64,000 nucleotides of DNA. Origin: a candidate division WWE3 bacterium RIFOXYB1_FULL_43_24. GTDB taxonomy: Bacteria > Patescibacteriota > WWE3 > UBA101185 > UBA10185. Below are positions 4,477-56,194 of the stretch, piece by piece; the first letter of the stretch is position 1, and every line of letters begins with the position of its first letter. The position numbers and the translations under genes were made by a program. The stretch spans positions 25,992 through 89,991 of the forward strand of contig MEVX01000008.1 in the NCBI GenBank assembly GCA_001773135.1, read 5' to 3'. Under the pieces are notes generated by a model. The model saw only the letters and a program-made list of their open reading frames with translations. It was not told the origin of the DNA and searched no databases.

Positions 4477-6630
4477 ATGCTAAATACTCCAATAAAAATT
4501 GGTGCATTATTACTTAAACTCACTAAAAACATCGGCTACTTTTTTCTCAGCATTCCCGACAGAATTTATAAGTTAATAAAAAAATTTCCTAAACTAAAGA
4601 TCCGTAAATTTCGAACTCCGAAGTTTCTGAAAAAAATCAGAAACGTACCGACGCACATACTTTCCCATACCGGAAAAGTTTTTAAAAACATACGGCTTTT
4701 TATTTTAGGTTTTGCGGCGTCGCTTCTCCTTATTTTTATTCCGTATGTCGTTCAATCGTGGTTTAAAGAACTACCGAATCCCGAAATGCTGACTGTTGCT
4801 CAGAAATACGGCCCCACACAAATTTTGGATAGAAACGGAGTTTTACTCTACGAAATATATTCTGATAAAAAATATGAACCTGTAAAACTTGACCGTATAT
4901 CGGAAGATGCTGTAAACGCGACAATTGCTGTTGAGGATTCTCTTTTTTACATACATAGAGGATTGAGGCCCGACAGTATAATAAGAGCTTTCAGAAAAAC
5001 ATTTGTGGATGGAGAAAAACAAGGTGGATCTACTATAACTCAACAGCTCGTGAAAAACGTACTTTTAACCCCCGAAAGAACTTTCTCAAGAAAACTAAAG
5101 GAAGCTGTCCTGTCCCTGATGGTGGAAGCAACGTACTCCAAACAACAAATTCTTGAAATGTATTTAAACAACATTGCTTACGGCGGTAACGCGTGGGGAA
5201 TTCAGTCAGCGGCCCAAAAATATTTTGCCAAAAATGCGTGGGAATTAAATCTGGCTGAGTCCGCAATGTTAGCAGGACTCCCCTCATCGCCTTCGCTTTA
5301 CTCTCCTTTGAACGACATGGGGGTTGCAAAAGAACGCCAGAAATATGTTTTGGACCGGATGGTCTCGTTAGGATATATCAATAGCGACGAGGCTAATGCA
5401 GCTCTGGAGCAAGAATTGAATATTGTTCCGCAAAAAGATTTTATAGGGGCGCCCCACTTTGTGAACTATGTCAGGAAAGTTCTGGAAGATATGTACGGCA
5501 GCAATTTTGTTAACCGCGGTGGTCTGAGGGTTACCACGACTTTGGATTATGGTCTTCAGCAAAAAGCCGAAGCTATAGTGTTTGACGAAGTACAAAAGGG
5601 AGGTAAATACGGTTTCTCAAACGGAGCGGCCGTAGTTCTGGATGTTAAAAATGCCGAGATATTAACTTATGTGGGATCTTACGATTACTTCGCACCGGGA
5701 TGGGGCGCTTTCGACGTTGTAACTTCTTACAGACAACCCGGGTCTTCGATAAAACCCGTGACGTACTCTTTAGCTTTGGCCGATACCTACACACCGGCGA
5801 CGATTATAAAAGACTCCCCTGTTGTATATAAATTCGAAGGATCCGAACCATATAGACCTGTTAACTACGATGGAAAGTACCACGGAAACGTTACTTTAAG
5901 GGCTGCTTTGGCTAATTCCTACAATATTCCAGCCGTTAAAGTTGCAAAAGCGGTTGGACCGGACAATATTGTTTCTTTGGGAAAGGACATGGGATTAACA
6001 AATTGGAAAGTCGATGGCTCCTACGGACTGTCCGTAACTCTCGGAGGAAAAGAAGTCAGACTAATTGATCTTGCCAATGTTTACACGACTTTAGCCAGAA
6101 AAGGATCTTATGCCGAACTGTCCCCTATTATTTCCATACGGGACGGCAGGGGATATGAAATATATTCGAAAAAGCAGGTTTATCCGCGGCAGGTCATTTC
6201 AGAAGAGGTGTCCTATTTAATGTGGAGTATTTTATCGGATAGTCAGGCACGTCTTCCGGCCTTTGGAACGCGTAACTTTCTTACTGTTGAGGGCAAACAA
6301 ATTGCGGCAAAAACCGGCACAACGGATTTGATAAAGGACAATTGGACCTTTGGTTTTACACCGAGCTACACAGTAGGAGTGTGGGTTGGGAACAACGATA
6401 ACAAGCCGATGAATAAATACATGGCTTCCGGATTAACAGGGGCTGCGCCAATTTGGAACAGGATAATGTCGGAGGTGCTGGCAGGAAAAACCAACGAGGT
6501 TTTTGACATGCCACTAGGCGTGTTTGTTAAAAAAGAAGAGGGTTGCAACAGGAGCGAGGTGTTCATAAAGGGATCGAATGTTCCGAAGAGTTTGTGTCCG
6601 GCTACGGAGAGGGCGGAGAAGGCGGACTAA
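4477..6630 (+). CDS. Class A penicillin-binding protein (GT51 transglycosylase plus transpeptidase), N-terminal membrane anchor
   Basis: GT51 motifs (AVEDSLFYIHRGL, GGSTITQQL). Transpeptidase motifs SSIKP (SxxK), SYN (SxN) and KTGTT (KTG). The true start may lie downstream of 4477. Confidence 0.85.
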   Translation: MLNTPIKIGALLLKLTKNIGYFFLSIPDRIYKLIKKFPKLKIRKFRTPKFLKKIRNVPTHILSHTGKVFKNIRLFILGFAASLLLIFIPYVVQSWFKELPNPEMLTVAQKYGPTQILDRNGVLLYEIYSDKKYEPVKLDRISEDAVNATIAVEDSLFYIHRGLRPDSIIRAFRKTFVDGEKQGGSTITQQLVKNVLLTPERTFSRKLKEAVLSLMVEATYSKQQILEMYLNNIAYGGNAWGIQSAAQKYFAKNAWELNLAESAMLAGLPSSPSLYSPLNDMGVAKERQKYVLDRMVSLGYINSDEANAALEQELNIVPQKDFIGAPHFVNYVRKVLEDMYGSNFVNRGGLRVTTTLDYGLQQKAEAIVFDEVQKGGKYGFSNGAAVVLDVKNAEILTYVGSYDYFAPGWGAFDVVTSYRQPGSSIKPVTYSLALADTYTPATIIKDSPVVYKFEGSEPYRPVNYDGKYHGNVTLRAALANSYNIPAVKVAKAVGPDNIVSLGKDMGLTNWKVDGSYGLSVTLGGKEVRLIDLANVYTTLARKGSYAELSPIISIRDGRGYEIYSKKQVYPRQVISEEVSYLMWSILSDSQARLPAFGTRNFLTVEGKQIAAKTGTTDLIKDNWTFGFTPSYTVGVWVGNNDNKPMNKYMASGLTGAAPIWNRIMSEVLAGKTNEVFDMPLGVFVKKEEGCNRSEVFIKGSNVPKSLCPATERAEKAD

Positions 6631-20255: not shown

Positions 20256-21443
20256 ATGCAAGTTAAACCTGAGATAGAACGCTTTGCAAAAATTCGAGTT
20301 GTCGGAGTCGGAGGTGCCGGCGGTAATGTAATAAACTCCATGATCGAGTCAAATCAGATCAGAGGTGTTGAATTCATTTCAATAAACACCGACGCTCAAG
20401 ATCTTTCAATAAATAAAGCAGTAATAAAGATACCCATTGGTCAGGAATTAACCCAAGGCTTAGGTGCGGGCTCAAATCCCGAAATTGGAAGAAAAGCAGC
20501 CGAAGAATCACTCGACCTTATAAAAAGCAACCTCGAGGGAGCTAATATGGTGTTCATTACTGCCGGTTTAGGCGGCGGAACAGGCACGGGAGCTTCCCCT
20601 ACCGTTGCGAGGATTGCCAAGGAGTCGGGTGCCCTTACTATTGGTGTTGTTACTAAACCGTTCAATTTTGAAGGAATACAAAGAATGAGGGCAGCAGACA
20701 GAGGGATGATGGAGCTAAGAAAAGAAGTTGACGCCTTAATCACCATACCCAACCAAAAACTATTAGAAGTTGCGGACGAAGACATGTCTATTATTGAAGC
20801 GTTTAGGCTATCGGACAGTGTTTTAAACCAGGGTGTGCAGGGAATTTCGGACCTTATCGTTATGCCCGGTTTGATCAACGTCGATTTCGCCGACGTTAAG
20901 ACAATTATGAAAGATGCCGGTACTGCTTTAATGGGCATAGGGATAGGTACAGGAGAAAATAGAGCCGAAGTTGCAGCCAAAGCAGCGATTTCCTCACCTT
21001 TGCTTGAACAATCGGTTGAAGGTGCCAAAGGCATACTTTTCAATATATCGGGTGGCCCGGATCTCACTATGAGGGAAGTAGATAGGGCAGCGAATATTAT
21101 CAGGGGAATAGCCGGAGAAGAGGCCGATATAATATTCGGAACTTCGATCGATGATGAACTGGCGGGGCAGCTAAAGATAACAGTAATTGCTACGGGATTT
21201 GAAGTTCCCGAAGAGGACGATTCGATGGCAGGATACGTGGAGAAGCACTACGGGCAGCCTTTGAGAAAAGACAAAACAGAAGTGCCGTTTCAACAAAACA
21301 TCCCCCAGACACCACAGGCTGAAACTCCCCCTGAAGATAAAAAACAGCCTAAGCTTCCTTCCGAAATGTGGAAACCCGATGACGCAGAAGACGAAGATTA
21401 CGGCACAGGTTTTGATATCCCCACTTTTTTAAGACAAAAGTGA
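20256..21443 (+). CDS. ftsZ: Cell-division GTPase FtsZ
   Basis: Tubulin signature GGGTGTG. The conserved C-terminal peptide DIPTFLR precedes the stop. Confidence 0.95.
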   Translation: MQVKPEIERFAKIRVVGVGGAGGNVINSMIESNQIRGVEFISINTDAQDLSINKAVIKIPIGQELTQGLGAGSNPEIGRKAAEESLDLIKSNLEGANMVFITAGLGGGTGTGASPTVARIAKESGALTIGVVTKPFNFEGIQRMRAADRGMMELRKEVDALITIPNQKLLEVADEDMSIIEAFRLSDSVLNQGVQGISDLIVMPGLINVDFADVKTIMKDAGTALMGIGIGTGENRAEVAAKAAISSPLLEQSVEGAKGILFNISGGPDLTMREVDRAANIIRGIAGEEADIIFGTSIDDELAGQLKITVIATGFEVPEEDDSMAGYVEKHYGQPLRKDKTEVPFQQNIPQTPQAETPPEDKKQPKLPSEMWKPDDAEDEDYGTGFDIPTFLRQK

Positions 21444-21509
21444 TTACGCATCTGATTACAGAAGTGATTACGCATCTGAATACAGAAGTGATTACGCATC
21501 TGATTACAG
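21438..21509. repeat. Three tandem copies of a 24-bp unit (AAGTGATTACGCATCTGATTACAG). Each unit holds two TGATTAC heptamers, giving six heptamers at 12-bp spacing. Copy 2 has one mismatch.
   Basis: Read directly. It starts inside the ftsZ stop codon and lies about 280 bp upstream of nrdJ. Confidence 0.8.
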
Positions 21510-21725
21510 AGGTAGTTCATTTGTACAAAAGGCAGGATGCTTTTGAGTACAAAAGTGCTTTTTTAGTAAAGAAATAGTGGATGTTCCGCAGCTACAACAA
21601 ATTAAAAAAACGTTCCCGCATAATAACAATCAAATATTGAGATACTACAACGTGCGTTTCCTTGTATCCTGAGTGATTTTTTGTTTTGATTTATATACTT
21701 AGTATTTATTTAGAATAGTCTTCTC

Positions 21726-30661: not shown

Positions 30662-30737
30662 GGGTCCGTGGCTCAGTGGTTAGAGCGCTCGGTTCACATC
30701 CGAGAGGTCCCTGGTTCGATCCCAGGCGGGCCCACCA
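30662..30737 (+). tRNA. tRNA-Val (anticodon CAC), CCA encoded
   Basis: Manual cloverleaf. Acceptor GGGTCCG/CGGGCCC, D-stem GCTC/GAGC, anticodon stem CTCGG/CCGAG, loop TTCACAT, T-arm CCTGG-TTCGATC-CCAGG. Confidence 0.9.
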
Positions 30738-30857
30738 TTTATCAAACTTGTGTACTTGATTGGTTGTATTCTAATACCCCGCTCACTTGAAATTATTTAT
30801 TATTGACTATAGAAAATATTTAGCAAAGAATTATTAGATAGTAAAAAAGTAGTACTC

Positions 30858-30975
30858 ATTTTGGAGAGTACTCCAAAAAGTAGCATCATTCTGGAGAGTA
30901 CTCCAAAAAGTAGCATCATTCTGGAGAGTACTCCAAAAAGTAGCATCATTCTGGAGAGTACTCCAAAAAGTAAAA
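30858..30975. repeat. About 3.9 perfect tandem copies of a 30-bp unit (ATTCTGGAGAGTACTCCAAAAAGTAGCATC), each containing the palindrome GAGTACTC (GGAG-AGTA-CTCC)
   Basis: Read directly. The array ends 1 bp before the ATG at 30977. A degenerate partial copy (AAAAAGTAGTACTCATTTTGGAGAGTACTCC) precedes it. Confidence 0.85.
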
Positions 30976-30976
30976 A

Positions 30977-32528
30977 AATGAAGAACAAAGAACCGTCGAA
31001 TTTTAATAACTCAGATAACGACCCCGGAGGCCAGCCCTCAGATTTTTCAGATCCCATATCAATGCCGGAAGTAGACAACATGGAGTTTTTTCGAACTCCT
31101 GCAATGCTGAACAAAAACTCCAAGGCTTGGCACGAAAAAGAAATACCCATAAGAATAAATTCGTACAACCGACCAGAAGGTATAGAAATAAATATTGAAT
31201 CTAAGCTGATTAACGAACATAACTTAATGAAGTACCCCAACGGTATCTGGCAGAATTATCCGGAAGACAATAAAGCAAAGCTGCTTGATAACATCGCATA
31301 TATTTTTACAGCCCATCTACCTATGTTGCTAAAAGGAAATATAAGACTCGAATACAATACCGGATATCCTCAGTGCTTTTCCTGGTCCCAGCAGTCGTTT
31401 ATGAGGCACCTGCCACTATATTGGTATTACTATAAAAAGCGGGGCATGAGCGTAATGCCTATGCTCAAAACGCTGCTTAATTCCAGGGCGTACTTTCGCG
31501 ACACCACCGATGTTCCCCCGGAGTTCCCGATCAGCGTCGACGAGAACGTTATACTACCTTTTACATTCGGTAAGGACAGCTTTTTAACTTACCATGTTTG
31601 CAAAGAACTTAAATTAAACACAATTCTGGTTTTCTTCAATGACCCAACTTTTTTGGGTTACGAGGGGGCGCATAAAAAAGTCTTATTTGAAGAGTTCTTA
31701 AAAAAGAACAAAAATGATCTTTATTTTCTGGAAAATCCTATGGAAGGTCTGAGAGATAACGGAGATGGCTGGTTTGGGTGGGAATTAAGTCTGACATCCT
31801 GGGCGTTGATGTGTCTGCCGCTTGCTTACAAATATAAGGCAGGGTACATTTTATTCAGTAATGAAAAGAGTGTTAACGCTTTTTACTACGACGACCAGGG
31901 ATTTAAAGTAGTACCGGAATATGAACAGGCATACCAGGCAACAGAAGAAATGTCATTACTCACACAGGCTATGTCGGAGGGCGAGTTGTATACATCAACA
32001 TTTTTACAAGGGCTAAATGATTTGGCTATAGTTGCGGTGTTGAACGAAAATTATGCCAAAGAAACTTTTCCCTATCTAATGTCATGCTGGGACGGAAGTG
32101 AGGAGAAGCGCTGGTGCGGTAAATGCACAAAGTGTGCCAGACTTTATTTGTACCTGTCTGCAATGGGTATCAATCCAATAGAAGTGGCGGGCTTTGAGGA
32201 TGATATGTTTAGTGAGGATAAGATAGACCTTTATAATGCTTTTGGAGAAAAAGCCTCCGGTCTGGGTTGGGACTCTTTCGGCTTGAATAAAGATGAACAA
32301 GAACTGTCCTTTTATATATGCGCTAAGCTTGGTAACCAGGCTCCGCTCGTTCAGATCTTCAAGAATTCGGAAGCTTACCAAAGAGTAGAACAAAACCTTA
32401 ACGTGCTTGTCGATGAATATTTAGGTCTTCATGAGGAACACTCCTCCCCACTAATTTGGAGAACTCAGATAAATGAGATCTTTAATACAGCACTAAAAAA
32501 AGTAAGAGAAAGAGTTTTCAGTTTATAA
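30977..32528 (+). CDS. PP-loop ATP-pyrophosphatase superfamily protein, QueC/ExsB-like or N-acetyl-sugar-amidotransferase-like. If the N-terminus instead includes the repeat-encoded ESTPKSSIIL x3, the ORF starts at 30861.
   Basis: C-terminal SCWDGSEEKRWCGKCTKCARLY matches the QueC-type zinc motif SC[YW]xG-x7-CGxCxxCxxR. A degenerate PP-loop-like ILPFTFGKDSFLT is present. There is an N-terminal domain of about 150 aa with no match. Confidence 0.45.
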
Positions 32529-33833: not shown

Positions 33834-35051
33834 GTGGCTATTCTAAATATCCGTAGATATAAATTTTGGACAATTCTCCTTTTTTTGGTTTTGAGCACGC
33901 TGCTGGTATCGGCTTTTGTCTTTCTAAAAGAGTATAAAAGCTATCTTGCTGAAAAAAAGCAAATTGAAGAGATGCAGAGACAGGTATACACGGACAGGCT
34001 GAGGGCAGCCGAGGCTTCGGCCAATTGTGCCGAAGTTCAGGAGGTTGAATACTTCACGTACTCGGGTAATGACCCCCTTTGGAATGAAAATAATAAATTC
34101 GGAATCTATATTTATGCTGAAATTGACGAATTTTTTGACCGGGCCGCAGAACTTGTAAATTCCGGTAAGGGCGATTGGGGTTATGTGTTGATCCCTTATA
34201 ACGTAAAAGATAAAAATTTCGAAAAATGGAAAAACGTTTTCAAGAAGCTCAATGAAAAGCATCTGATTCCGGTCATTCAGTTACATGATGTAGATCCGGA
34301 TGACTACAAAGATCAAACCAGGGAGTCCGCCGCCTTTTTAAACAGATTTGTTTGGCCCGTACGGTATAGGTATGTCAGTGTTTACAATGAACCGAATGAC
34401 CGTAAGTTTTGGTACGATCGGGTGAGTCCGAAAGAGTACGCGGAGATATTGGATTATACGATCGACGTTTACAAGGAAGAAAATCCCGATTTTTTTATGC
34501 TGAACGGTGCCTTTAACGTTACTGCTCCTTCCGATGATAATCACATGGATTCTTTGGAATATATGAGACGTATGGAAGTTGCCGAACCGGGAATTTTTAA
34601 AAAACTGGACGGTTGGGCGTCGCATTCTTACCCCCAGCCGAACTTTTCGGGCAACCCTTACGACGAAGGAAGGTGGAGCATAAAAGCCTACGAGACCGAA
34701 TTAAGTTATCTTAAAAAAGTACTTAAGGTAGAAAAGGATTTACCGGTGTTTATCACTGAAACCGGTTGGGCCCATGCTGAAGGATCGGAATATAACAGCA
34801 GCTATTTACCTGTAGATACGATTTCCGAATATTTTGAAAAAGCATTTAAAGATGTTTGGCTTAAAGATAAGAGGGTGAGGGCAGTTATGCCGTTTACAAT
34901 AAGATACGATCCTCCTTTTGATCACTTTTCATGGCTTAACCAAGATAACGACCCTTACAAACATTTCGATGTTGTCAGGGATATGAAAAAAGAAGAAGGG
35001 AAGCCCCCGGTACTTGTAGTTAACAAAATAAAAGTCGGGGGTTGCGAGTAA
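33834..35051 (+). CDS. Membrane-anchored glycoside hydrolase of clan GH-A (GH5-like TIM barrel)
   Basis: N-terminal TM. Clan GH-A acid/base motif YNEPN and the nucleophile motif FITETGW. Confidence 0.55.
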   Translation: MAILNIRRYKFWTILLFLVLSTLLVSAFVFLKEYKSYLAEKKQIEEMQRQVYTDRLRAAEASANCAEVQEVEYFTYSGNDPLWNENNKFGIYIYAEIDEFFDRAAELVNSGKGDWGYVLIPYNVKDKNFEKWKNVFKKLNEKHLIPVIQLHDVDPDDYKDQTRESAAFLNRFVWPVRYRYVSVYNEPNDRKFWYDRVSPKEYAEILDYTIDVYKEENPDFFMLNGAFNVTAPSDDNHMDSLEYMRRMEVAEPGIFKKLDGWASHSYPQPNFSGNPYDEGRWSIKAYETELSYLKKVLKVEKDLPVFITETGWAHAEGSEYNSSYLPVDTISEYFEKAFKDVWLKDKRVRAVMPFTIRYDPPFDHFSWLNQDNDPYKHFDVVRDMKKEEGKPPVLVVNKIKVGGCE

Positions 35052-39491: not shown

Positions 39492-39567
39492 TGGAGCCGA
39501 TAACAGGAGTCGAACCTGTGACCTTTCCCTTACGAAGGGACTGCTCTACCAACTGAGCTATACCGGC
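39492..39567 (-). tRNA. tRNA-Thr (anticodon CGT), CCA encoded
   Basis: Manual fold of the reverse complement: GCCGGTA-TA-GCTC-AGTTGGTA-GAGC-A-GTCCC-TTCGTAA-GGGAA-AGGTC-ACAGG-TTCGACT-CCTGT-TATCGGC-T-CCA. Confidence 0.9.
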
Positions 39568-39639
39568 CAACGTCATAATTTTACCAGAATAAAAGAAACG
39601 CTGAGATAGTTTTTGTGTTATCTCAGCGTTAATGGCAGA

Positions 39640-39954
39640 TCACTCTAAAAGTTTTTTCCCTTCTTCCACAGAGATAATTTCTTCGTGAGTTGTCAATTGT
39701 TCAAAACCGAGGTAATAACAAACGAAGGCGACTTCCTCGTTTTTATAATAAGCGCGGTAGATTTTCAATGTTGCTACTTTGTCTTGAAACTCCACCTCCC
39801 TGACTCCCAGGGGCTCCTGGTCAATAAACAATGTCCCCACAGGTATTTGTTTATAGAACGTGACTGCTTTAAGATTTCCGCGTGCACTTTTTTGGAAGTG
39901 TTTGATCGTGCAAACTTGTGTTACCATGCGGTACGTGCCATTAGTGTTGTTCAT
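39640..39954 (-). CDS. Hypothetical protein (104 aa) lying between tRNA genes
   Basis: ORF only. No motif recognised. Confidence 0.35.
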   Translation of the reverse strand: MNNTNGTYRMVTQVCTIKHFQKSARGNLKAVTFYKQIPVGTLFIDQEPLGVREVEFQDKVATLKIYRAYYKNEEVAFVCYYLGFEQLTTHEEIISVEEGKKLLE

Positions 39955-40180
39955 TTTCTCCCTCTCTTTATGCAGTTCGAATTAGTGGGGTTATCGGTTT
40001 TGCTCTAGCGCGTCTATATAAATTTATCTCTCCTTCAATCAGATTTTTTGCAGTATATCACAGAATATAACTGCGTTCTTTTAGCCCGACACGTGCAAAA
40101 AAAAAACACTTAACCGCGCGAATTGTATTGTAGGTTTGGAATATTGTTGGAAAGGCGGGGTGGATTGAATTTCAATCATT

Positions 40181-40420
40181 TGGAGCGGGTGACGGGATTC
40201 GGTCACCGGTTCGTGTCTGCTGACACGCCCGTCGACCCCGCCTCGCTCACCTACGTTCGCTGCGGCATTCTCATCCCGTCAGACTAAAAAGCTTGTCAGG
40301 AGATAAACTCCCGCCAACCTTTTTGGAGCGGGTGACGGGATTCGGTCACCGGTTCGTGTCTGCTGACACGCCCGTCGACCCCGCCTCACTCACCTTCGTT
40401 CGCTGCGGCATTCTCATCCC
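40181..40420 (-). repeat. Two tandem 97-bp GC-rich repeats (40181-40277 and 40324-40420; period 143 bp; 2 mismatches). Each ends on the minus strand with the last 21 nt of tRNA-Gly (CGAATCCCGTCACCCGCTCCA).
   Basis: Read directly. The copies lie immediately 3' of the intact tRNA-Gly on the minus strand. Each unit has internal hairpins (GGTGAC/GTCACC, GTGTC-AGCA-GACAC). Confidence 0.8.
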
Positions 40421-40471
40421 TTACACCCTATAAATTTGCCCACCAACCCTGCGGGCTGTTGGTCAAATTTC

Positions 40472-40546
40472 TGGAGCGGGTGACGGGATTCGAACCCGCG
40501 ACCTTTTCCTTGGGAAGGAAACGCCATACCACTAGGCCACACCCGC
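40472..40546 (-). tRNA. tRNA-Gly (anticodon CCC), CCA encoded
   Basis: Reverse complement folds as GCGGGTG-TG-GCC..GGC-G-TTTCC-TTCCCAA-GGAAA-AGGTC-GCGGG-TTCGAAT-CCCGT-CACCCGC-T-CCA. Confidence 0.9.
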
Positions 40547-40628
40547 GTATCAAAGAGATTATAACAACAGAGCACAACAAAAAACACCCTCAGCTATAAG
40601 GGTGTTCTTAAGTTCGAAAGTAAAAAAA

Positions 40629-41123
40629 TTAGGGAAGAACCAAAACCTGACCGGGAATAATCAAAGCCTGCTGCCCGTTAACTAAAAATCCCACATCACC
40701 TTTATTTGCTTCCAATATCTTTGTCCATTGAGAGCCGTCGCCGTAAGCTCCTTCAGCTATTTCCCACAGAGTGTCGCCGGATTTAACTGTGTATGTTGCC
40801 CCTTGAATATCACCTTTTTGGTAGTTGTTGGCTACCCACTCGGCTTTAACAAGACCACTCACATCAGCTTTCGAAATAGTCCCCGCGACTGTAGGCGGTA
40901 AATTTTTATCTGCCGCTGCGTTTCCGTTTATATCTCCCTCTACCTCCTCGAAATCGCCGTTTTCCTCTTGAAATACTGCTTGTTCCTGAGTTTTACTTAT
41001 CTCTTCCGAGCTTTTGTTGAAATAATTGTATGCAGCGAAAACCAAAGCAACTATAAATAACCCGCCGATTATCAAAGCCAAACCGTCTCTCTCGTTACCT
41101 TTTTCTTTTACGTCTGTGGACAT
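40629..41123 (-). CDS. LysM-domain protein with N-terminal TM anchor
   Basis: C-terminal YTVKSGDTLWEIAEGAYGDGSQWTKILEANKGDV is a LysM motif. N-terminal TM LALIIGGLFIVALVFAAY. Confidence 0.7.
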   Translation of the reverse strand: MSTDVKEKGNERDGLALIIGGLFIVALVFAAYNYFNKSSEEISKTQEQAVFQEENGDFEEVEGDINGNAAADKNLPPTVAGTISKADVSGLVKAEWVANNYQKGDIQGATYTVKSGDTLWEIAEGAYGDGSQWTKILEANKGDVGFLVNGQQALIIPGQVLVLP

Positions 41124-41167
41124 TTACGAACCTCCTTCATATGAGGGCAGAAATAAGATTAATACTA

Positions 41168-41244
41168 TGGCGGGATCGACGGGACTCGAACCCGCGGCCT
41201 CCGCAGTGACAGTGCGGCGCTCTAACCGACTGAGCTACGACCCC
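41168..41244 (-). tRNA. tRNA-Asp (anticodon GTC), CCA encoded
   Basis: Reverse complement: GGGGTCG-TA-GCTC-AGTCGGTTA-GAGC-G-CCGCA-CTGTCAC-TGCGG-AGGCC-GCGGG-TTCGAGT-CCCGT-CGATCCC-G-CCA. Confidence 0.9.
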
Positions 41245-41733: not shown

Positions 41734-43491
41734 ATGAACGCCAATCGTATTTCCAACAAAGAAGTCATTTCAGCTATGAAAGAAGTTTTAGCTGCGATGG
41801 ATGTGAAGAATTTCAACGTTTTTAGGGTGAGGGCTTATCAGAACGCTATAGCGATACTCGACAACCTGACAGTTTCAATATACGACTTGTGGGAAAACGG
41901 CAGGCTGAAAGAAATTCCGGGTGTGGGGGCAAGTATTTACGGCCATCTAAATGAGCTTTTTTCCACAGGGAAAGTTAAAGAATTCGAAGCAATTAAAAAG
42001 GATCTACCTGAAGGGATGTTTGCGCTAATCGGTATCCGCGGTATCGGAGCAAGAAAAGCTTTTAAACTTGCTAATGCTTTCAAAATAAAAACAAGGGAGG
42101 GGGCAGTTGAACGAGTTAAAGAACACGCAGAAAAAGGTGAGATAAGAGAGCTTGAAGGTTTCGGCGAAAAATCGGAAAAAGACATACTGGAGTCTATCGG
42201 TCAGTTCAAGATGACCAAGAACGAGAAACAACGCGTGCTCTACTCAAGAGCGGAGGAAACGGTGGGGAGAATTTACGATTACATGAAGGAGTTGGATGCA
42301 CTCGGTCACATTGAAGCCGCCGGATCATTCCGCAGGAAGAACGCCACAATCGGGGATCTGGATATACCTGTTGCTACTACCGACCCTGACAAAACAATCA
42401 AGCACTTTTTACAATTTCCTGAAATTGCCGAGACTTTAGTAAAAGGTGACAAAAAATGCAGCGTTGTCCTTAAAAATGATTTACAGGTGGACCTGAGAGT
42501 TTCAACCCCCGAAGCGTACGGTGCCATGCTCCAGTATTTTACAGGTTCCAAACAACATAACATTCTCCTCCGCAACTTTGCCCTTTCCAGAAATATGTCT
42601 TTATCCGAGTACGGGATTAAAAAAGGAAGCGACATTTACGAGTTTGCAGATGAGCCGTCTTTTTATAAATTTTTAGGGCTGCCTTATATAGAGCCTGAAC
42701 TGAGGAACGGTTCTAACGAAATTGAAGCGGCTATTGAAAATAAACTACCTGATTTGATTGAGCTAAAGGATATTAAAGGAGAAGTTCATACCCACACTAC
42801 TGATTCGGACGGAGTAAGCACTTTGGAAGAAATGGTAGATGCGGCCATCGCGTTAGGTTACGAATATTTAGGAATTTCAGACCACGCACCGAGCGTTACA
42901 TCACGCGGCTACAAAGAAGTATCGGATATTATAAAAAAGAAACGGGCGGCGATAAATAAAATAAACGAAAAACAAAATTTTATTAAAGTTTTCTTCGGCT
43001 ATGAAGTTAATATTCTAGCTGACGCGGCATTAGGTTTACCCGACGAAGTGCTTTCTGAGCTGGACTATGTTGTAGCTTCTATCCACACTTCTTTTAATCA
43101 GGACAGGGAGCAGATAACGGATAGACTTCTGGCCGCAATAGAAAATCCTTACGTGAATATAATCGGTCACCCATCGGGGAGGTTGCTAAATCAACGAGAT
43201 CCGGTAGACCCCGCGTGGGATAAAATATTTTTAGCTGCCCGTGATAACAACAAAATTCTTGAAATAAATTCTCAACCCGACCGTTTAGACCTTACCGACG
43301 ATTTGGTAAAGGAAGCAATCGGCTGGAAAGTGAAAATGGTGATAAGTAGTGATGCACACGCTACAGATCAGTTTTCACACATGAAGTACGGAATTTATAA
43401 CGCACGCCGGGGTTGGGCGGAAAAGAAAAATATTTTAAATACGCTCGGTTTTACTGACTTTGTGAGAGAAGCCGGGATACGTTTGAAGTGA
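41734..43491 (+). CDS. polX: Family X DNA polymerase with a C-terminal PHP phosphoesterase domain (PolX)
   Basis: 585 aa. N-terminal Pol-beta-like HhH (IPGVGASIYGHL; GIRGIGARKAFKL) and nucleotidyltransferase (GSFRRKNATIGDLDI). C-terminal PHP with HTHTTDSDG ... SDHA. Confidence 0.85.
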   Translation: MNANRISNKEVISAMKEVLAAMDVKNFNVFRVRAYQNAIAILDNLTVSIYDLWENGRLKEIPGVGASIYGHLNELFSTGKVKEFEAIKKDLPEGMFALIGIRGIGARKAFKLANAFKIKTREGAVERVKEHAEKGEIRELEGFGEKSEKDILESIGQFKMTKNEKQRVLYSRAEETVGRIYDYMKELDALGHIEAAGSFRRKNATIGDLDIPVATTDPDKTIKHFLQFPEIAETLVKGDKKCSVVLKNDLQVDLRVSTPEAYGAMLQYFTGSKQHNILLRNFALSRNMSLSEYGIKKGSDIYEFADEPSFYKFLGLPYIEPELRNGSNEIEAAIENKLPDLIELKDIKGEVHTHTTDSDGVSTLEEMVDAAIALGYEYLGISDHAPSVTSRGYKEVSDIIKKKRAAINKINEKQNFIKVFFGYEVNILADAALGLPDEVLSELDYVVASIHTSFNQDREQITDRLLAAIENPYVNIIGHPSGRLLNQRDPVDPAWDKIFLAARDNNKILEINSQPDRLDLTDDLVKEAIGWKVKMVISSDAHATDQFSHMKYGIYNARRGWAEKKNILNTLGFTDFVREAGIRLK

Positions 43492-55438: not shown

Positions 55439-56194
55439 TTAATTTCTTTTATTCAGGAGGTATTTTTTCAGACCCAAATAAAAGATTAACACACACAAAA
55501 TACCCATACTCAAACCGGCGAGAATTTCTCCCCCATAGAATCTGGTAACGGTTACCGCAAGATTTTCTCCATAGCCACTTGTGGGGACAGGTGGGGGTGT
55601 GCGGGTTGGTTGAGGGGGCCCCGGCGTTGCAGTAGCTGGCGGTACCCAAGTATTTGTAGGTGTCGGCGGTACTTCGGTTGGCGGTACTTCGGTTGGCGGG
55701 ATTTCTGTCGGCGGTACCTCTGTCGGTGTTGTTGTAGGTGTCTCCGTGGGTGTCGATGTTGGTGTTGCCGTGGGCGTAGATGTAGGTGTCTCCGTGGGCG
55801 TCGATGTAGGTGTTGCCGTGGGCGTAGATGTAGGTGTGCTGGTTTTCGTTGGAGTAGGTTCCGGTGTCTTTAACACGTCGTAAGGAACCAACTCTTGTAC
55901 TGTGTCTCCGCACCAGAAGCGATTTACGCTGGGTATATAACTGCACACAGTTCCTACCGTGGGATTTGGCAACGCGGGATTGTTGCAGTACGCGTTTACA
56001 ACGTAGCCACCTGCTCCACCGAGCTCAAACCTAAATTGCGAGCCCGACACTCCCGGTACCGGACCATAGCCCAGATCGTCAATTACGCGCCAACCCTCTT
56101 TCGGTAGATCAAAACCTGCGCTAGCAGCGGTGTTCAACATAGCCGCCAGAAAAACAAAAACAAATAGTATAGTCACAATTTTGAGCTTATTCAT
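55439..56194 (-). CDS. Secreted protein with a Cys-containing N-domain, a long Pro/Thr-rich linker (TPTSTPTATPTSTPTETP... then EVPPTEIPPTEVPP) and a C-terminal TM plus basic tail
   Basis: Signal peptide MNKLKIVTILFVFVFLAAMLNTAASA. C-terminus ILAGLSMGILCVLIFYLGLKKYLLNKRN is a hydrophobic helix plus KR tail with no LPXTG. Confidence 0.55.
   Translation of the reverse strand: MNKLKIVTILFVFVFLAAMLNTAASAGFDLPKEGWRVIDDLGYGPVPGVSGSQFRFELGGAGGYVVNAYCNNPALPNPTVGTVCSYIPSVNRFWCGDTVQELVPYDVLKTPEPTPTKTSTPTSTPTATPTSTPTETPTSTPTATPTSTPTETPTTTPTEVPPTEIPPTEVPPTEVPPTPTNTWVPPATATPGPPQPTRTPPPVPTSGYGENLAVTVTRFYGGEILAGLSMGILCVLIFYLGLKKYLLNKRN

What the first reader, a model, noticed from the sequence alone, without database searches (positions are those of the whole stretch)
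30858..32528. QueC-like PP-loop protein preceded by four perfect 30-bp palindrome-containing tandem repeats
The C-terminus SCWDGSEEKRWCGKCTKCARLY reproduces the zinc-binding signature of QueC/ExsB-type PP-loop ATPases. The same architecture occurs in N-acetyl-sugar amidotransferases (WbpG-like) encoded in glycan clusters, which fits this gene's position at the head of a GH/flippase/ligase/galU cluster. The first 150 aa or so are unrecognisable and the PP-loop itself is degenerate (FGKDS).

Immediately 5' are 3.9 identical copies of a 30-bp unit, each with the palindrome GAGTACTC at three-helical-turn spacing. One reading is an operator or iteron-like array for a dimeric regulator. The other is an N-terminal decapeptide repeat (ESTPKSSIIL)n if translation starts at 30861. 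Perfect nucleotide identity of the copies suggests recent expansion or contraction, so this could be a phase- or length-variable element.
Basis: partly seen in the sequence, partly recalled or inferred. Interest (0 to 1): 0.55.

Follow-up and report, generated by a model that had tools for sequence, protein, structure and literature searches.

The report
Hairpin repeat inserted before PP-loop gene
A short repeated DNA hairpin element that is scattered through genomes of the uncultured WWE3 bacteria has inserted, and varies in copy number, just upstream of a gene for an uncharacterised ATP-using enzyme distantly related to QueC and the peptidoglycan epimerase MurL; both are moderately interesting, and neither is a new kind of system.

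The parts
30662..30737 (+). tRNA-Val (CAC), upstream neighbour. It is conserved in the relatives that lack the repeat.
   Evidence: ARAGORN; Rfam tRNA 68 bits; invariant block in alignment A1.
30803..30838 (+). Promoter-like block conserved among strains: TTGACT (30803-30808), 17 nt, AAGAAT (30826-30831), then TATTAG. In relatives the ATG follows 16 nt after AAGAAT. In the window the repeat array lies in between.
   Evidence: Consensus scan, 9 of 12 matches. TATTGACT and TTTAGCAAAGAATTATTA are invariant in four strains although the surrounding intergenic DNA has diverged. Promoter function is inferred, not shown.
30844..30874 (+). Unit 1 of the array (31 nt, diverged): AAAAAGTAGTACTCA + hairpin TTTTGGAG-AGTA-CTCCAAAA. 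It is the unit closest to the family consensus seen in other WWE3 genomes.
   Evidence: Covariance model R1 gives 62 bits, E 2e-13. The single unit folds at -9.6 kcal/mol, z -3.1.
30875..30964 (+). Three perfect 30-nt units, AAAAAGTAGCATCATTCTGGAGAGTACTCC. There are only two in assemblies L021 and L032.
   Evidence: The single unit folds at -5.9 kcal/mol; a T-to-C change weakens the base of the stem.
30965..30972 (+). Partial unit AAAAAGTA. Together with 30841-30848 it forms the direct repeat GTAAAAAA flanking the insertion. This could be a target-site duplication or simply a partial unit.
   Evidence: Read from the sequence and alignment A1. Which of the two it is remains unresolved.
30861..30977 (+). 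In-frame upstream extension from a TTG, encoding (ESTPKSSIIL)n. Judged not to be part of the protein.
   Evidence: No homolog has it, and relatives with 93% and 87% identity start at the ATG. No Shine-Dalgarno sequence precedes the TTG. Only one of the three + strand frames of the unit contains a stop codon, so an open frame here is expected by chance.
30978..32528 (+). Coding sequence of a 516-aa protein, MurL-like with a QueC-fold PP-loop. Residues 1-48 are disordered and not conserved. About 50-185 form an N-terminal domain with no recognisable relative. About 187-400 form the PP-loop domain with its Cys cluster. About 400-516 are helical.
31557..31580 (+). PP-loop variant P-F-T-F-G-K-D-S (residues 194-201).
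   Evidence: Invariant or nearly so in A2. Aligned with vSGGKDS of TtuA by the profile search.
32085..32135 (+). Cys cluster C370-x9-C380-x2-C383-x2-C386, the QueC-type metal site.
   Evidence: All four Cys are invariant in 42 sequences. Weak Pfam QueC and DUF6395 hits fall on this stretch.
21434..21560 (+). Second array of the same repeat family: three 24-nt units with a shortened stem, plus two degenerate hairpin units. It starts at the ftsZ stop codon (TGA, 21441-21443).
   Evidence: TRF; weak R1 hits of 19 and 17 bits; fold z -4.65; identical in six other assemblies.

Best explanation
There are two separate things here.

**1. The repeat.** The 129-nt repeat is an array of a small hairpin element that is dispersed in WWE3 (Katanobacteria) genomes. 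Each unit of about 31 nt is an A-rich linker (AAAAAGTAGTAnGCA) followed by an 8-bp stem with a 4-6-nt loop, UUUUGGAG-AGUA-CUCCAAAA. In this strain an array of at least two units was inserted into the very short leader between a conserved promoter-like block and the start codon. One unit was then amplified, most likely by slippage or unequal recombination, giving three (or in some assemblies two) identical copies.

The array is probably transcribed as a roughly 135-nt 5' leader made of tandem RNA hairpins. It behaves like REP/BIME-type extragenic repeats. At most it would modulate mRNA stability or translation of the downstream gene. It is not a regulator-binding operator and it is not coding.

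**2. The gene.** The gene starts at the ATG at 30978 and encodes a 516-aa enzyme. Its core is a QueC-type PP-loop ATP pyrophosphatase domain with a four-Cys metal site. It belongs to an uncurated family from Patescibacteria and DPANN that is distantly related to MurL.

By analogy with QueC and MurL it most likely adenylates a carboxylate (ATP to AMP + PPi). From the gene neighbourhoods of its homologs, that carboxylate probably belongs to a peptide made by ATP-grasp ligases.

**Shown versus inferred.** Shown: the anatomy, the insertion, the copy-number difference between assemblies, the dispersal to other loci, the stem covariation, the fold and the conserved motifs. Inferred: transcription of the array, any effect on expression, how the element spreads, and the enzyme's chemistry and substrate.
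For: **The repeat is an insertion.** L001/L002 (93% protein identity) and L003 (87%) keep the order signal peptidase, tRNA-Val, gene, GH18. They go straight from the conserved TTGACT..AAGAATTATTAG block to the ATG.

**Copy number.** The distance from the promoter block to the ATG context is 150 nt in the window, L018/L031, L019, L033 and L036. It is 120 nt in L021 and L032, which come from two different projects.

**Dispersal.** The junction 21-mer is found in two WWE3 genomes and four metagenome contigs. There it lies in tandem arrays between rpsM and rpsK, between rpsB and tsf, and as a single unit after gatB. A related array follows ftsZ in the window.

**Hairpin.** 96.6% of cells are paired. 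Three of 8 stem pairs change on both sides (GGAG/CUCC, GAGG/CCUC, GGGG/CCCC). No shuffle reaches the observed covariation score, and slid registers drop to 74% paired or less. Single units fold at -9 to -14 kcal/mol.

**Orientation and position.** All five arrays are on the sense strand of their flanking genes. In 4 of 4 cases with an upstream ORF, the stop codon lies in the unit's AAGT[AG][GA] motif.

**No known RNA family.** Rfam finds nothing.

**Protein.** ATP-grasp neighbours occur in 5 of 8 distinct contexts, with further ATP-grasp-like genes and paralogs nearby. MurL chemistry (needs ATP and Mg, forms AMP, partners the ligase MurD2) is taken from PMC5808125 and PMC8788868.
Against: - No transcript data exist, so the start site is inferred only from a consensus match and sequence conservation.
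- The copy-number difference comes from short-read assemblies. These can collapse perfect tandem repeats, and several contigs break in or near this region (L020).
- The census is small: 2 arrays in 64 kb and 3 other loci. All were found through a single exact 21-mer, so 'dispersed genome-wide' is an extrapolation.
- The units are head-to-tail and all on the sense strand, unlike classical BIMEs. No RAYT-type transposase was looked for.
- The regular overlap with stop codons hints at a function or a target preference that the neutral REP-like picture does not explain.
- For the protein, the MurL match is weak (24 bits against a cutoff of 700).
- The window has no ATP-grasp partner of that kind.
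- The N-terminal domain has no recognisable relative.
Confidence: 0.62

Rival explanations
1. The array is an operator or iteron: each GAGTACTC palindrome, spaced three helical turns apart, binds a dimeric DNA-binding regulator of the downstream gene.
For: There is a perfect 8-bp palindrome at exact 30-bp spacing between a promoter-like block and the start codon.
Against: The closest strains have the same gene and the same promoter block without any repeat. The same unit family sits at rpsM-rpsK, rpsB-tsf, gatB and ftsZ. In those units GAGTACTC is replaced by GAGGACAAAGCCTC, GGGGGTTACCCC or GGGGATTACCCC. What stays conserved is base pairing in a different register, the 8-bp stem, not the sequence. 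No regulator gene is adjacent.
Confidence: 0.06
2. The repeat is translated: the protein starts at the TTG at 30861 and carries an N-terminal (ESTPKSSIIL)n extension of variable length.
For: The frame is open from 30861, the unit is 30 nt (10 codons), and it is in frame with the ATG. One gene caller chose the TTG start in L032, giving 545 aa. The first 48 residues after the ATG are disordered, so an extension could be tolerated.
Against: None of the 141 homologs has the extension. The 93% and 87% relatives have only an A-rich, SD-less stretch directly before the ATG, and the window keeps the same stretch before it. The TTG has no Shine-Dalgarno sequence. Two of the three + strand frames of the unit are open, so an open frame is expected by chance. 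Units of the same family elsewhere are 31 or 24 nt and lie after stop codons.
Confidence: 0.08
3. The array is a classical phase-variation switch that turns the gene on and off through changes in copy number.
For: The units are perfectly identical, and assemblies encoding an identical protein carry 4 or 3 hairpins.
Against: The array lies downstream of the -35/-10-like block and upstream of the ATG. Steps of 30 nt therefore alter neither promoter spacing nor reading frame. The ftsZ array of the same family does not vary across seven assemblies.
Confidence: 0.05
4. The protein is an N-acetyl-sugar amidotransferase (WbpG/WbuX/PseA-like) acting in the neighbouring glycan cluster.
For: It is a PP-loop protein near GH18, flippase-like, Wzy_C and nucleotidyl transferase genes. 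TIGR03573 WbuX weakly matches 3 of 42 family members.
Confidence: 0.1
5. The repeat is an assembly artefact.
For: Perfect tandem repeats are error-prone in short-read assemblies, and contigs break here (L020).
Against: The same array with identical flanks is recovered in at least seven contigs from different projects and assemblers. Only the exact copy number is uncertain.
Confidence: 0.02

Closest known systems
REP/BIME (repetitive extragenic palindromic) elements of Enterobacteria and Pseudomonas. This comparison is from general knowledge and was not tested here.
   Same: Short (20-40 nt) imperfect palindromes that form stem-loops. They are extragenic but lie inside transcription units, often right after stop codons or between cistrons. 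They cluster into arrays, occur at many unrelated loci, and are polymorphic for presence or absence between strains.
   Different: Units here are strictly head-to-tail and all on the sense strand, whereas BIMEs alternate in orientation. The stem is only 8 bp and its base is A/U-rich. The first unit repeatedly supplies the upstream gene's stop codon. The host is a ~0.9-Mb candidate-phylum genome. Any link to a RAYT transposase was not examined.
QueC (7-cyano-7-deazaguanine synthase) and the QueC-like proteins Cap9 and QatC of anti-phage systems
   Different: 13-16% identity. The Pfam QueC score is 12.6 bits against a cutoff of 22. The protein is 516 aa rather than about 200-430. It has an extra ~135-residue N-terminal domain and a ~115-residue C-terminal helical domain. 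The loop reads TFGKDS instead of SGGxDS. No queuosine or defence genes are nearby, and PADLOC gives no hit.
[quoted passage not shown]
   Same: It is the only curated family that matches every member (42 of 42, best E 1.3e-11). For a more distant relative, P0182, the match is collinear over almost the full length (42-431 against 66-438 of 447). The size class is similar. Both occur next to an amide-bond ligase: MurD2 for MurL, Ddl-like and other ATP-grasp proteins here.
   Different: Scores are 21-35 bits against an equivalog cutoff of 700. The partner is an ATP-grasp ligase, not a Mur ligase. The family also occurs in DPANN archaea. In this window it has no ligase partner at all.

Membership tests
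QueC (PF06508 / preQ0 pathway) | Passes the Pfam gathering score | tested here: not met
   12.4-12.6 bits against a cutoff of 22, over residues 332-387 only.
QueC (PF06508 / preQ0 pathway) | PP-loop SGGxDS | tested here: inconclusive
   The variant T-F-G-K-D-S is invariant in the family and is aligned with SGGKDS of TtuA at E about 0.5. ATP binding was not tested.
QueC (PF06508 / preQ0 pathway) | Four-Cys metal site after the PP-loop domain | tested here: met
   C370, C380, C383 and C386 are invariant in 42 sequences. The region superposes with QueC and Cap9.
QueC (PF06508 / preQ0 pathway) | Single-domain protein of about 220 aa with queD/queE/queF in the genomic context | tested here: not met
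   The protein is 516 aa with three structured regions. None of the neighbour genes examined here is a que gene.
MurL (NF041275) | Reaches the equivalog cutoff | tested here: not met
   23.8 bits against 700.
MurL (NF041275) | Adjacent murD2-type Mur ligase | tested here: not met
   The window neighbours are tRNA-Val and GH18. Homologs have ATP-grasp partners, not Mur ligases.
MurL (NF041275) | ATP/Mg-dependent, AMP-forming epimerisation of a C-terminal residue | not testable with these tools
   Needs biochemistry.
N-acetyl sugar amidotransferase (TIGR03573 WbuX/WbpG) | Profile match and closest fold | tested here: not met
REP/BIME-like extragenic repeats | Short imperfect palindrome able to form a stem-loop, with the stem maintained by compensatory change | tested here: met
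   8-bp stem, 96.6% paired, 3 pairs with changes on both sides, 0 of 500 shuffles reach the observed score. Folds shown.
REP/BIME-like extragenic repeats | Many copies at unrelated extragenic sites in one genome | tested here: inconclusive
   2 arrays in the 64-kb window and 3 other loci in three other WWE3 lineages. No whole genome could be scanned.
REP/BIME-like extragenic repeats | Associated RAYT (IS200/IS605-like) transposase | not tested
   The window ORFs were not all scanned, and whole genomes were not available.
Rfam RNA families | Any curated covariance model matching the array | tested here: not met
   Only the tRNA passes. The best hit on the array is E of about 1.5 or worse.

The most novel reading that the evidence does not exclude
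The protein family may be an ATP-dependent peptide epimerase that acts like MurL. Working with the Ddl-like and other ATP-grasp ligases encoded next to it in Patescibacteria and DPANN archaea, it would give these reduced organisms a way to make D-amino-acid-containing cell-envelope or other peptides without racemases.

Separately, the hairpin units, whose 5' motif repeatedly supplies the stop codon of the upstream gene, could be a functional RNA element acting at translation termination or protecting mRNA 3' ends, rather than selfish DNA.
Probability: 0.2. Interest if true: 0.7.

Novelty: new variant of a known kind. Interest (0 to 1): 0.4.

Why it matters
Candidate-phyla bacteria such as WWE3 have genomes of about 0.9 Mb and are usually described as streamlined. 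A dispersed hairpin repeat that amplifies in tandem, differs between near-identical strains and sits at stop codons and in leaders of core genes (ftsZ, rpsK, tsf) is a handle on genome dynamics and post-transcriptional control in organisms that cannot be grown. It also causes annotation errors: 545/555-aa gene calls here and a 45-aa ORF after ftsZ.

The protein family has about 140 clusters at 90% identity and 1,410 representatives in the wider superfamily. It has no Pfam or NCBIfam model of its own. It links the enzyme MurL, described in the reviews read here (2018, 2021) as lacking known conserved domains, to the QueC branch of PP-loop ATPases. Its pairing with ATP-grasp ligases suggests a testable peptide pathway in Patescibacteria and DPANN.

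Tried and rejected
- Single-sequence phmmer against PDB gave only noise.
- The profile against PDB gave only a marginal TtuA PP-loop match, E 0.5.
- PADLOC gave no defence-system match despite the structural similarity to QatC and Cap9.
- A profile search of the 5.8-billion-protein collection returned the same ~142 proteins and did not reach named MurL proteins.
- The exhaustive HMMER search enlarged the superfamily to 1,410 representatives, but the ten sampled are also only weak MurL matches or none.
- The afdb50 fold library was unavailable.
- Rfam found nothing for the array.
- The viral contig scan for the unit junction found 0 matches.
- L017 (Motiliproteus) holds a chance 21-mer match with no repeat structure.
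- Folding the whole array gives a degenerate ensemble with an empty centroid, because every unit can pair with every other. Only single-unit folds are informative.
- The terminator reading was rejected: the stem is followed by A's on both strands, with no U-run.
- Units acting as promoters were considered. AAAAGT lies 6 nt before the ATG, but no credible -35 was found, so this was not pursued.
- Three literature searches, for a WWE3 or candidate-phyla repeat element and for a QueC-like/ATP-grasp pair in Patescibacteria, found nothing relevant.
Full report

Yes. Tandem Repeats Finder reports a period-30 array at 30844-30972, with 4.3 copies and 96% matches. The 30-mer AAAAAGTAGCATCATTCTGGAGAGTACTCC occurs three times without mismatch, at 30875, 30905 and 30935 (0 expected). 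The core GGAGAGTACTCC occurs four times at exactly 30-nt spacing.

The first unit (30844-30874) is 31 nt and diverged. After the third perfect unit comes an 8-nt partial unit. So the array is three perfect units plus one diverged unit, not four perfect ones.

The ORF 30861-32528 (TTG start, 555 aa) exists and reads M(ESTPKSSIIL)x3... through the repeat. A tRNA-Val(CAC) lies at 30662-30737.

**2. The repeat is an insertion that close relatives lack.**

The protein has 141 homologs, all unnamed, mostly from Patescibacteria with some DPANN archaea. They are 470-530 aa and align from the ATG at 30978, not from the TTG.

The two closest relatives, P0001 (93% identity) and P0002 (87%), lie on contigs with the same gene order: signal peptidase, tRNA-Val, this gene, convergent GH18. 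In the intergenic alignment the tRNA and a block TATTGACT...TTTAGCAAAGAATTATTAG are invariant, while the rest has diverged. In all three relative contigs the ATG follows that block within 16 nt. The window instead has about 121 extra bases there, which is the array.

The block scores as a sigma-70-like promoter: TTGACT, 17 nt, AAGAAT. That it is a promoter is an inference. The insertion is flanked by the direct repeat GTAAAAAA. This may be a target duplication or just a partial unit.

**3. Copy number differs between assemblies.**

Thirteen contigs encode exactly this protein and 23 encode exactly the neighbouring signal peptidase. Among contigs that span the array:
- Five (window, L018/L031, L019, L033, L036) have 150 nt between the promoter block and the ATG context, with 4 hairpin cores.
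- Two, from different projects (L021 and L032), have 120 nt, with 3 hairpin cores.

L020 starts inside the array. This fits gain or loss of a unit. Because these are short-read assemblies of a perfect repeat, read-level confirmation is still needed.

**4. The unit belongs to a family found at unrelated loci.**

The junction 21-mer TGGAGAGTACTCCAAAAAGTA occurs in two WWE3 genomes (CP006914.1 RAAC2_WWE3_1 and MEWJ01000031.1) and in four metagenome contigs. It is absent from viral contigs. One further hit, in a Motiliproteus genome, is a chance match with no repeat.

In the WWE3 loci it is part of head-to-tail arrays of units about 31 nt long:
- five units between rpsM and rpsK (L015, L012);
- four units between rpsB and tsf (L016, L013, L014);
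- one unit after gatB (L011).

All units share AAAAAGTAGTAnGCA followed by a hairpin, but the stems differ: UUUUGGAG-AGUA-CUCCAAAA, UUUUGAGG-ACAAAG-CCUCAAAA, UUUCGGGG-AUUA-CCCCGAAA.

On 11 distinct units the 8-bp stem is 96.6% paired. Three pairs change on both sides. No shuffle of 500 reaches the observed covariation score, and sliding the register lowers pairing to 74% or less. Single units fold at -9 to -14 kcal/mol, and the amplified window unit at -5.9.

Conservation of pairing rather than sequence argues for a single-strand structure (RNA, or ssDNA during transposition). It argues against a duplex site read by a dimeric protein.

**5. Census in the window.**

A covariance model of the unit (R1) finds only the array at 30843-30972 at high score. 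It also gives weaker hits at 21435-21557 (19 and 17 bits). Those hits fall on the window's other notable tandem repeat. It has three 24-nt units, AGAAGTGATTACGCATCTGATTAC, which have the same linker but a stem shortened to 4 bp. Two further hairpin units follow, directly after ftsZ. This second array is identical in six other assemblies.

All five arrays are on the sense strand of their neighbouring genes. In all four cases with an upstream ORF (ftsZ, rpsM, rpsB, gatB), the ORF's stop codon is the TAG or TGA inside the first unit's AAGT[AG][GA] motif.

Rfam has no matching family. Literature searches found no description of such an element in WWE3 or other candidate-phyla bacteria.

**6. What the array most likely is and does.**

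The best fit is a REP/BIME-like dispersed hairpin repeat that inserts into transcribed extragenic DNA and grows or shrinks in tandem. Here it lies in what was a very short leader, so it would be transcribed as a roughly 135-nt leader of four hairpins. The A-rich 9 nt directly before the ATG are preserved by the flanking duplication.

It is not a terminator, because the stem is followed by A's on both strands. It is not a classical phase switch, because 30-nt steps change neither promoter spacing nor reading frame.

Many genes in this window have a TATAAT-like hexamer 4-11 nt before the start codon and no Shine-Dalgarno sequence (judged by eye only). A long structured leader would therefore be unusual in this organism and might well affect expression. 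That is speculation.

The coding reading is unlikely for several reasons. There is no Shine-Dalgarno sequence at the TTG. Two of the three frames of the unit are open anyway. No homolog has the extension. Related units elsewhere are 31 or 24 nt long and lie after stop codons.

**7. The protein.**

*Conserved motifs and model.* Alignment of 42 homologs shows invariant P-F-T-F-G-K-D-S and invariant C370, C380, C383 and C386. AlphaFold2 gives a confident model with pLDDT 85.5 and pTM 0.84; residues 1-48 are disordered.

*Family assignment.* Pfam gives only sub-threshold DUF6395 and QueC hits on the Cys region. PADLOC gives nothing. The one curated family that matches all 42 members is MurL (best E 1.3e-11; 24 bits for this protein against a cutoff of 700).

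*Wider superfamily.* An exhaustive HMMER search finds 1,410 representatives at E of 1e-3 or better, and 160 at 1e-30 or better. Many are about 445-460 aa. For one of them, P0182, the MurL match is collinear over almost the full length.

*MurL chemistry.* MurL needs ATP and Mg, forms AMP, and is thought to adenylate the alpha-carboxylate of the terminal Glu. It works with the ligase MurD2 and was described as lacking known domains (PMC5808125, PMC8788868).

The 'QueC-like PP-loop' reading is therefore right at the level of fold. Membership of QueC, MurL or WbpG/WbuX is not met.

**8. Genomic context of the family.**

Within WWE3 the gene stands alone between tRNA-Val and a convergent GH18. The + strand glycan genes (a 405-aa protein of unknown function, a flippase-like protein, Wzy_C) start only at 33834.

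Elsewhere, five of eight distinct contexts place the gene directly beside a Ddl-like ATP-grasp gene that scores below the Ddl cutoffs. This holds in three bacterial contigs and in both archaeal contigs, Micrarchaeota and Aenigmatarchaeota. L004 and L023 add one or two further ATP-grasp-like genes, with weak similarity to the L-amino-acid ligases LdmS and BesA and to the PGM1 C-terminal domain. L024 and L009 have a paralog of the PP-loop protein next door. No such ATP-grasp gene lies in the 64-kb window.

The most economical inference is an adenylating enzyme that acts on a peptide carboxylate made by ATP-grasp ligases, either epimerising it like MurL or amidating it. I put this at about 50%, and the epimerase version specifically at about 20%.

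**9. Verdict.**

The fold assignment and the idea that the array varies in length are supported. The operator, decapeptide, phase-switch and glycan-amidotransferase readings are not.

Both components are new variants of known kinds: a REP-like hairpin repeat family in a candidate-phylum genome, and an uncurated MurL-related branch of QueC-fold PP-loop enzymes. They are of moderate interest. The regular overlap of the repeat with stop codons and the ligase pairing of the enzyme family are the two leads worth following.

Noticed in passing
window 21434-21560 (+): A second tandem array, directly after ftsZ. It has three 24-nt units, AGAAGTGATTACGCATCTGATTAC, followed by two degenerate hairpin units, and is related to the units at 30844-30972. 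The ftsZ stop codon lies inside unit 1. Other assemblies call a 45-aa ORF over the array, which is probably spurious.
   Followed up: partly
L015 about 5784-5955 (-), L016 about 6290-6417 (+), L011 2219-2258 (+), window 21441-21443: In all four arrays that have an upstream same-strand ORF (rpsM, rpsB, gatB, ftsZ), the ORF ends ...K-stop using the TAG or TGA of the unit's AAGT[AG][GA] motif. This points to a target preference or a termination-linked role.
   Followed up: partly
window, start-codon contexts of about 20 genes (for example 20256, 24321, 25015, 27908, 41734; minus strand 30589, 39094): Most genes show a TATAAT-like hexamer 4-11 nt upstream of the start codon and no Shine-Dalgarno sequence. 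Only a few (43551, 41123) have AGGAGG. Leaderless or very short-leader mRNAs may be the norm in this organism. This was judged by eye and has no statistics behind it.
   Followed up: no
L004 5179-10557; L023 4540-8438; L024 4862-8671; L009 8001-10817: Homologs elsewhere sit in clusters of one to three ATP-grasp or ATP-grasp-like genes together with the PP-loop gene. In L024 and L009 a paralogous second PP-loop gene lies next door (27% identity to the window protein).
   Followed up: partly
window 55661-55837 (-): The period 15/24/48 repeats encode a Thr/Pro-rich linker (TPTSTPTATPTSTPTE..., EVPPTE...) in a 251-aa protein with an N-terminal signal-like segment and a C-terminal hydrophobic segment (55439-56194). 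This is an ordinary low-complexity linker.
   Followed up: partly
window 32518-32528: The PP-loop gene and the convergent GH18 gene overlap by 11 nt at their 3' ends. The same overlap is seen in the relatives L001, L003 and L018.
   Followed up: no
L011 2262-2310: A canonical intrinsic terminator (GC-rich stem followed by a T-run) for the convergent minus-strand gene lies right after the hairpin unit. Ordinary terminators therefore exist in these genomes and look different from the repeat units.
   Followed up: no
window 39492-41244 (-): Three further tRNA genes lie here: Thr-CGT, Gly-CCC and Asp-GTC. A family X DNA polymerase with a PHP domain follows at 41734-43491.
   Followed up: no
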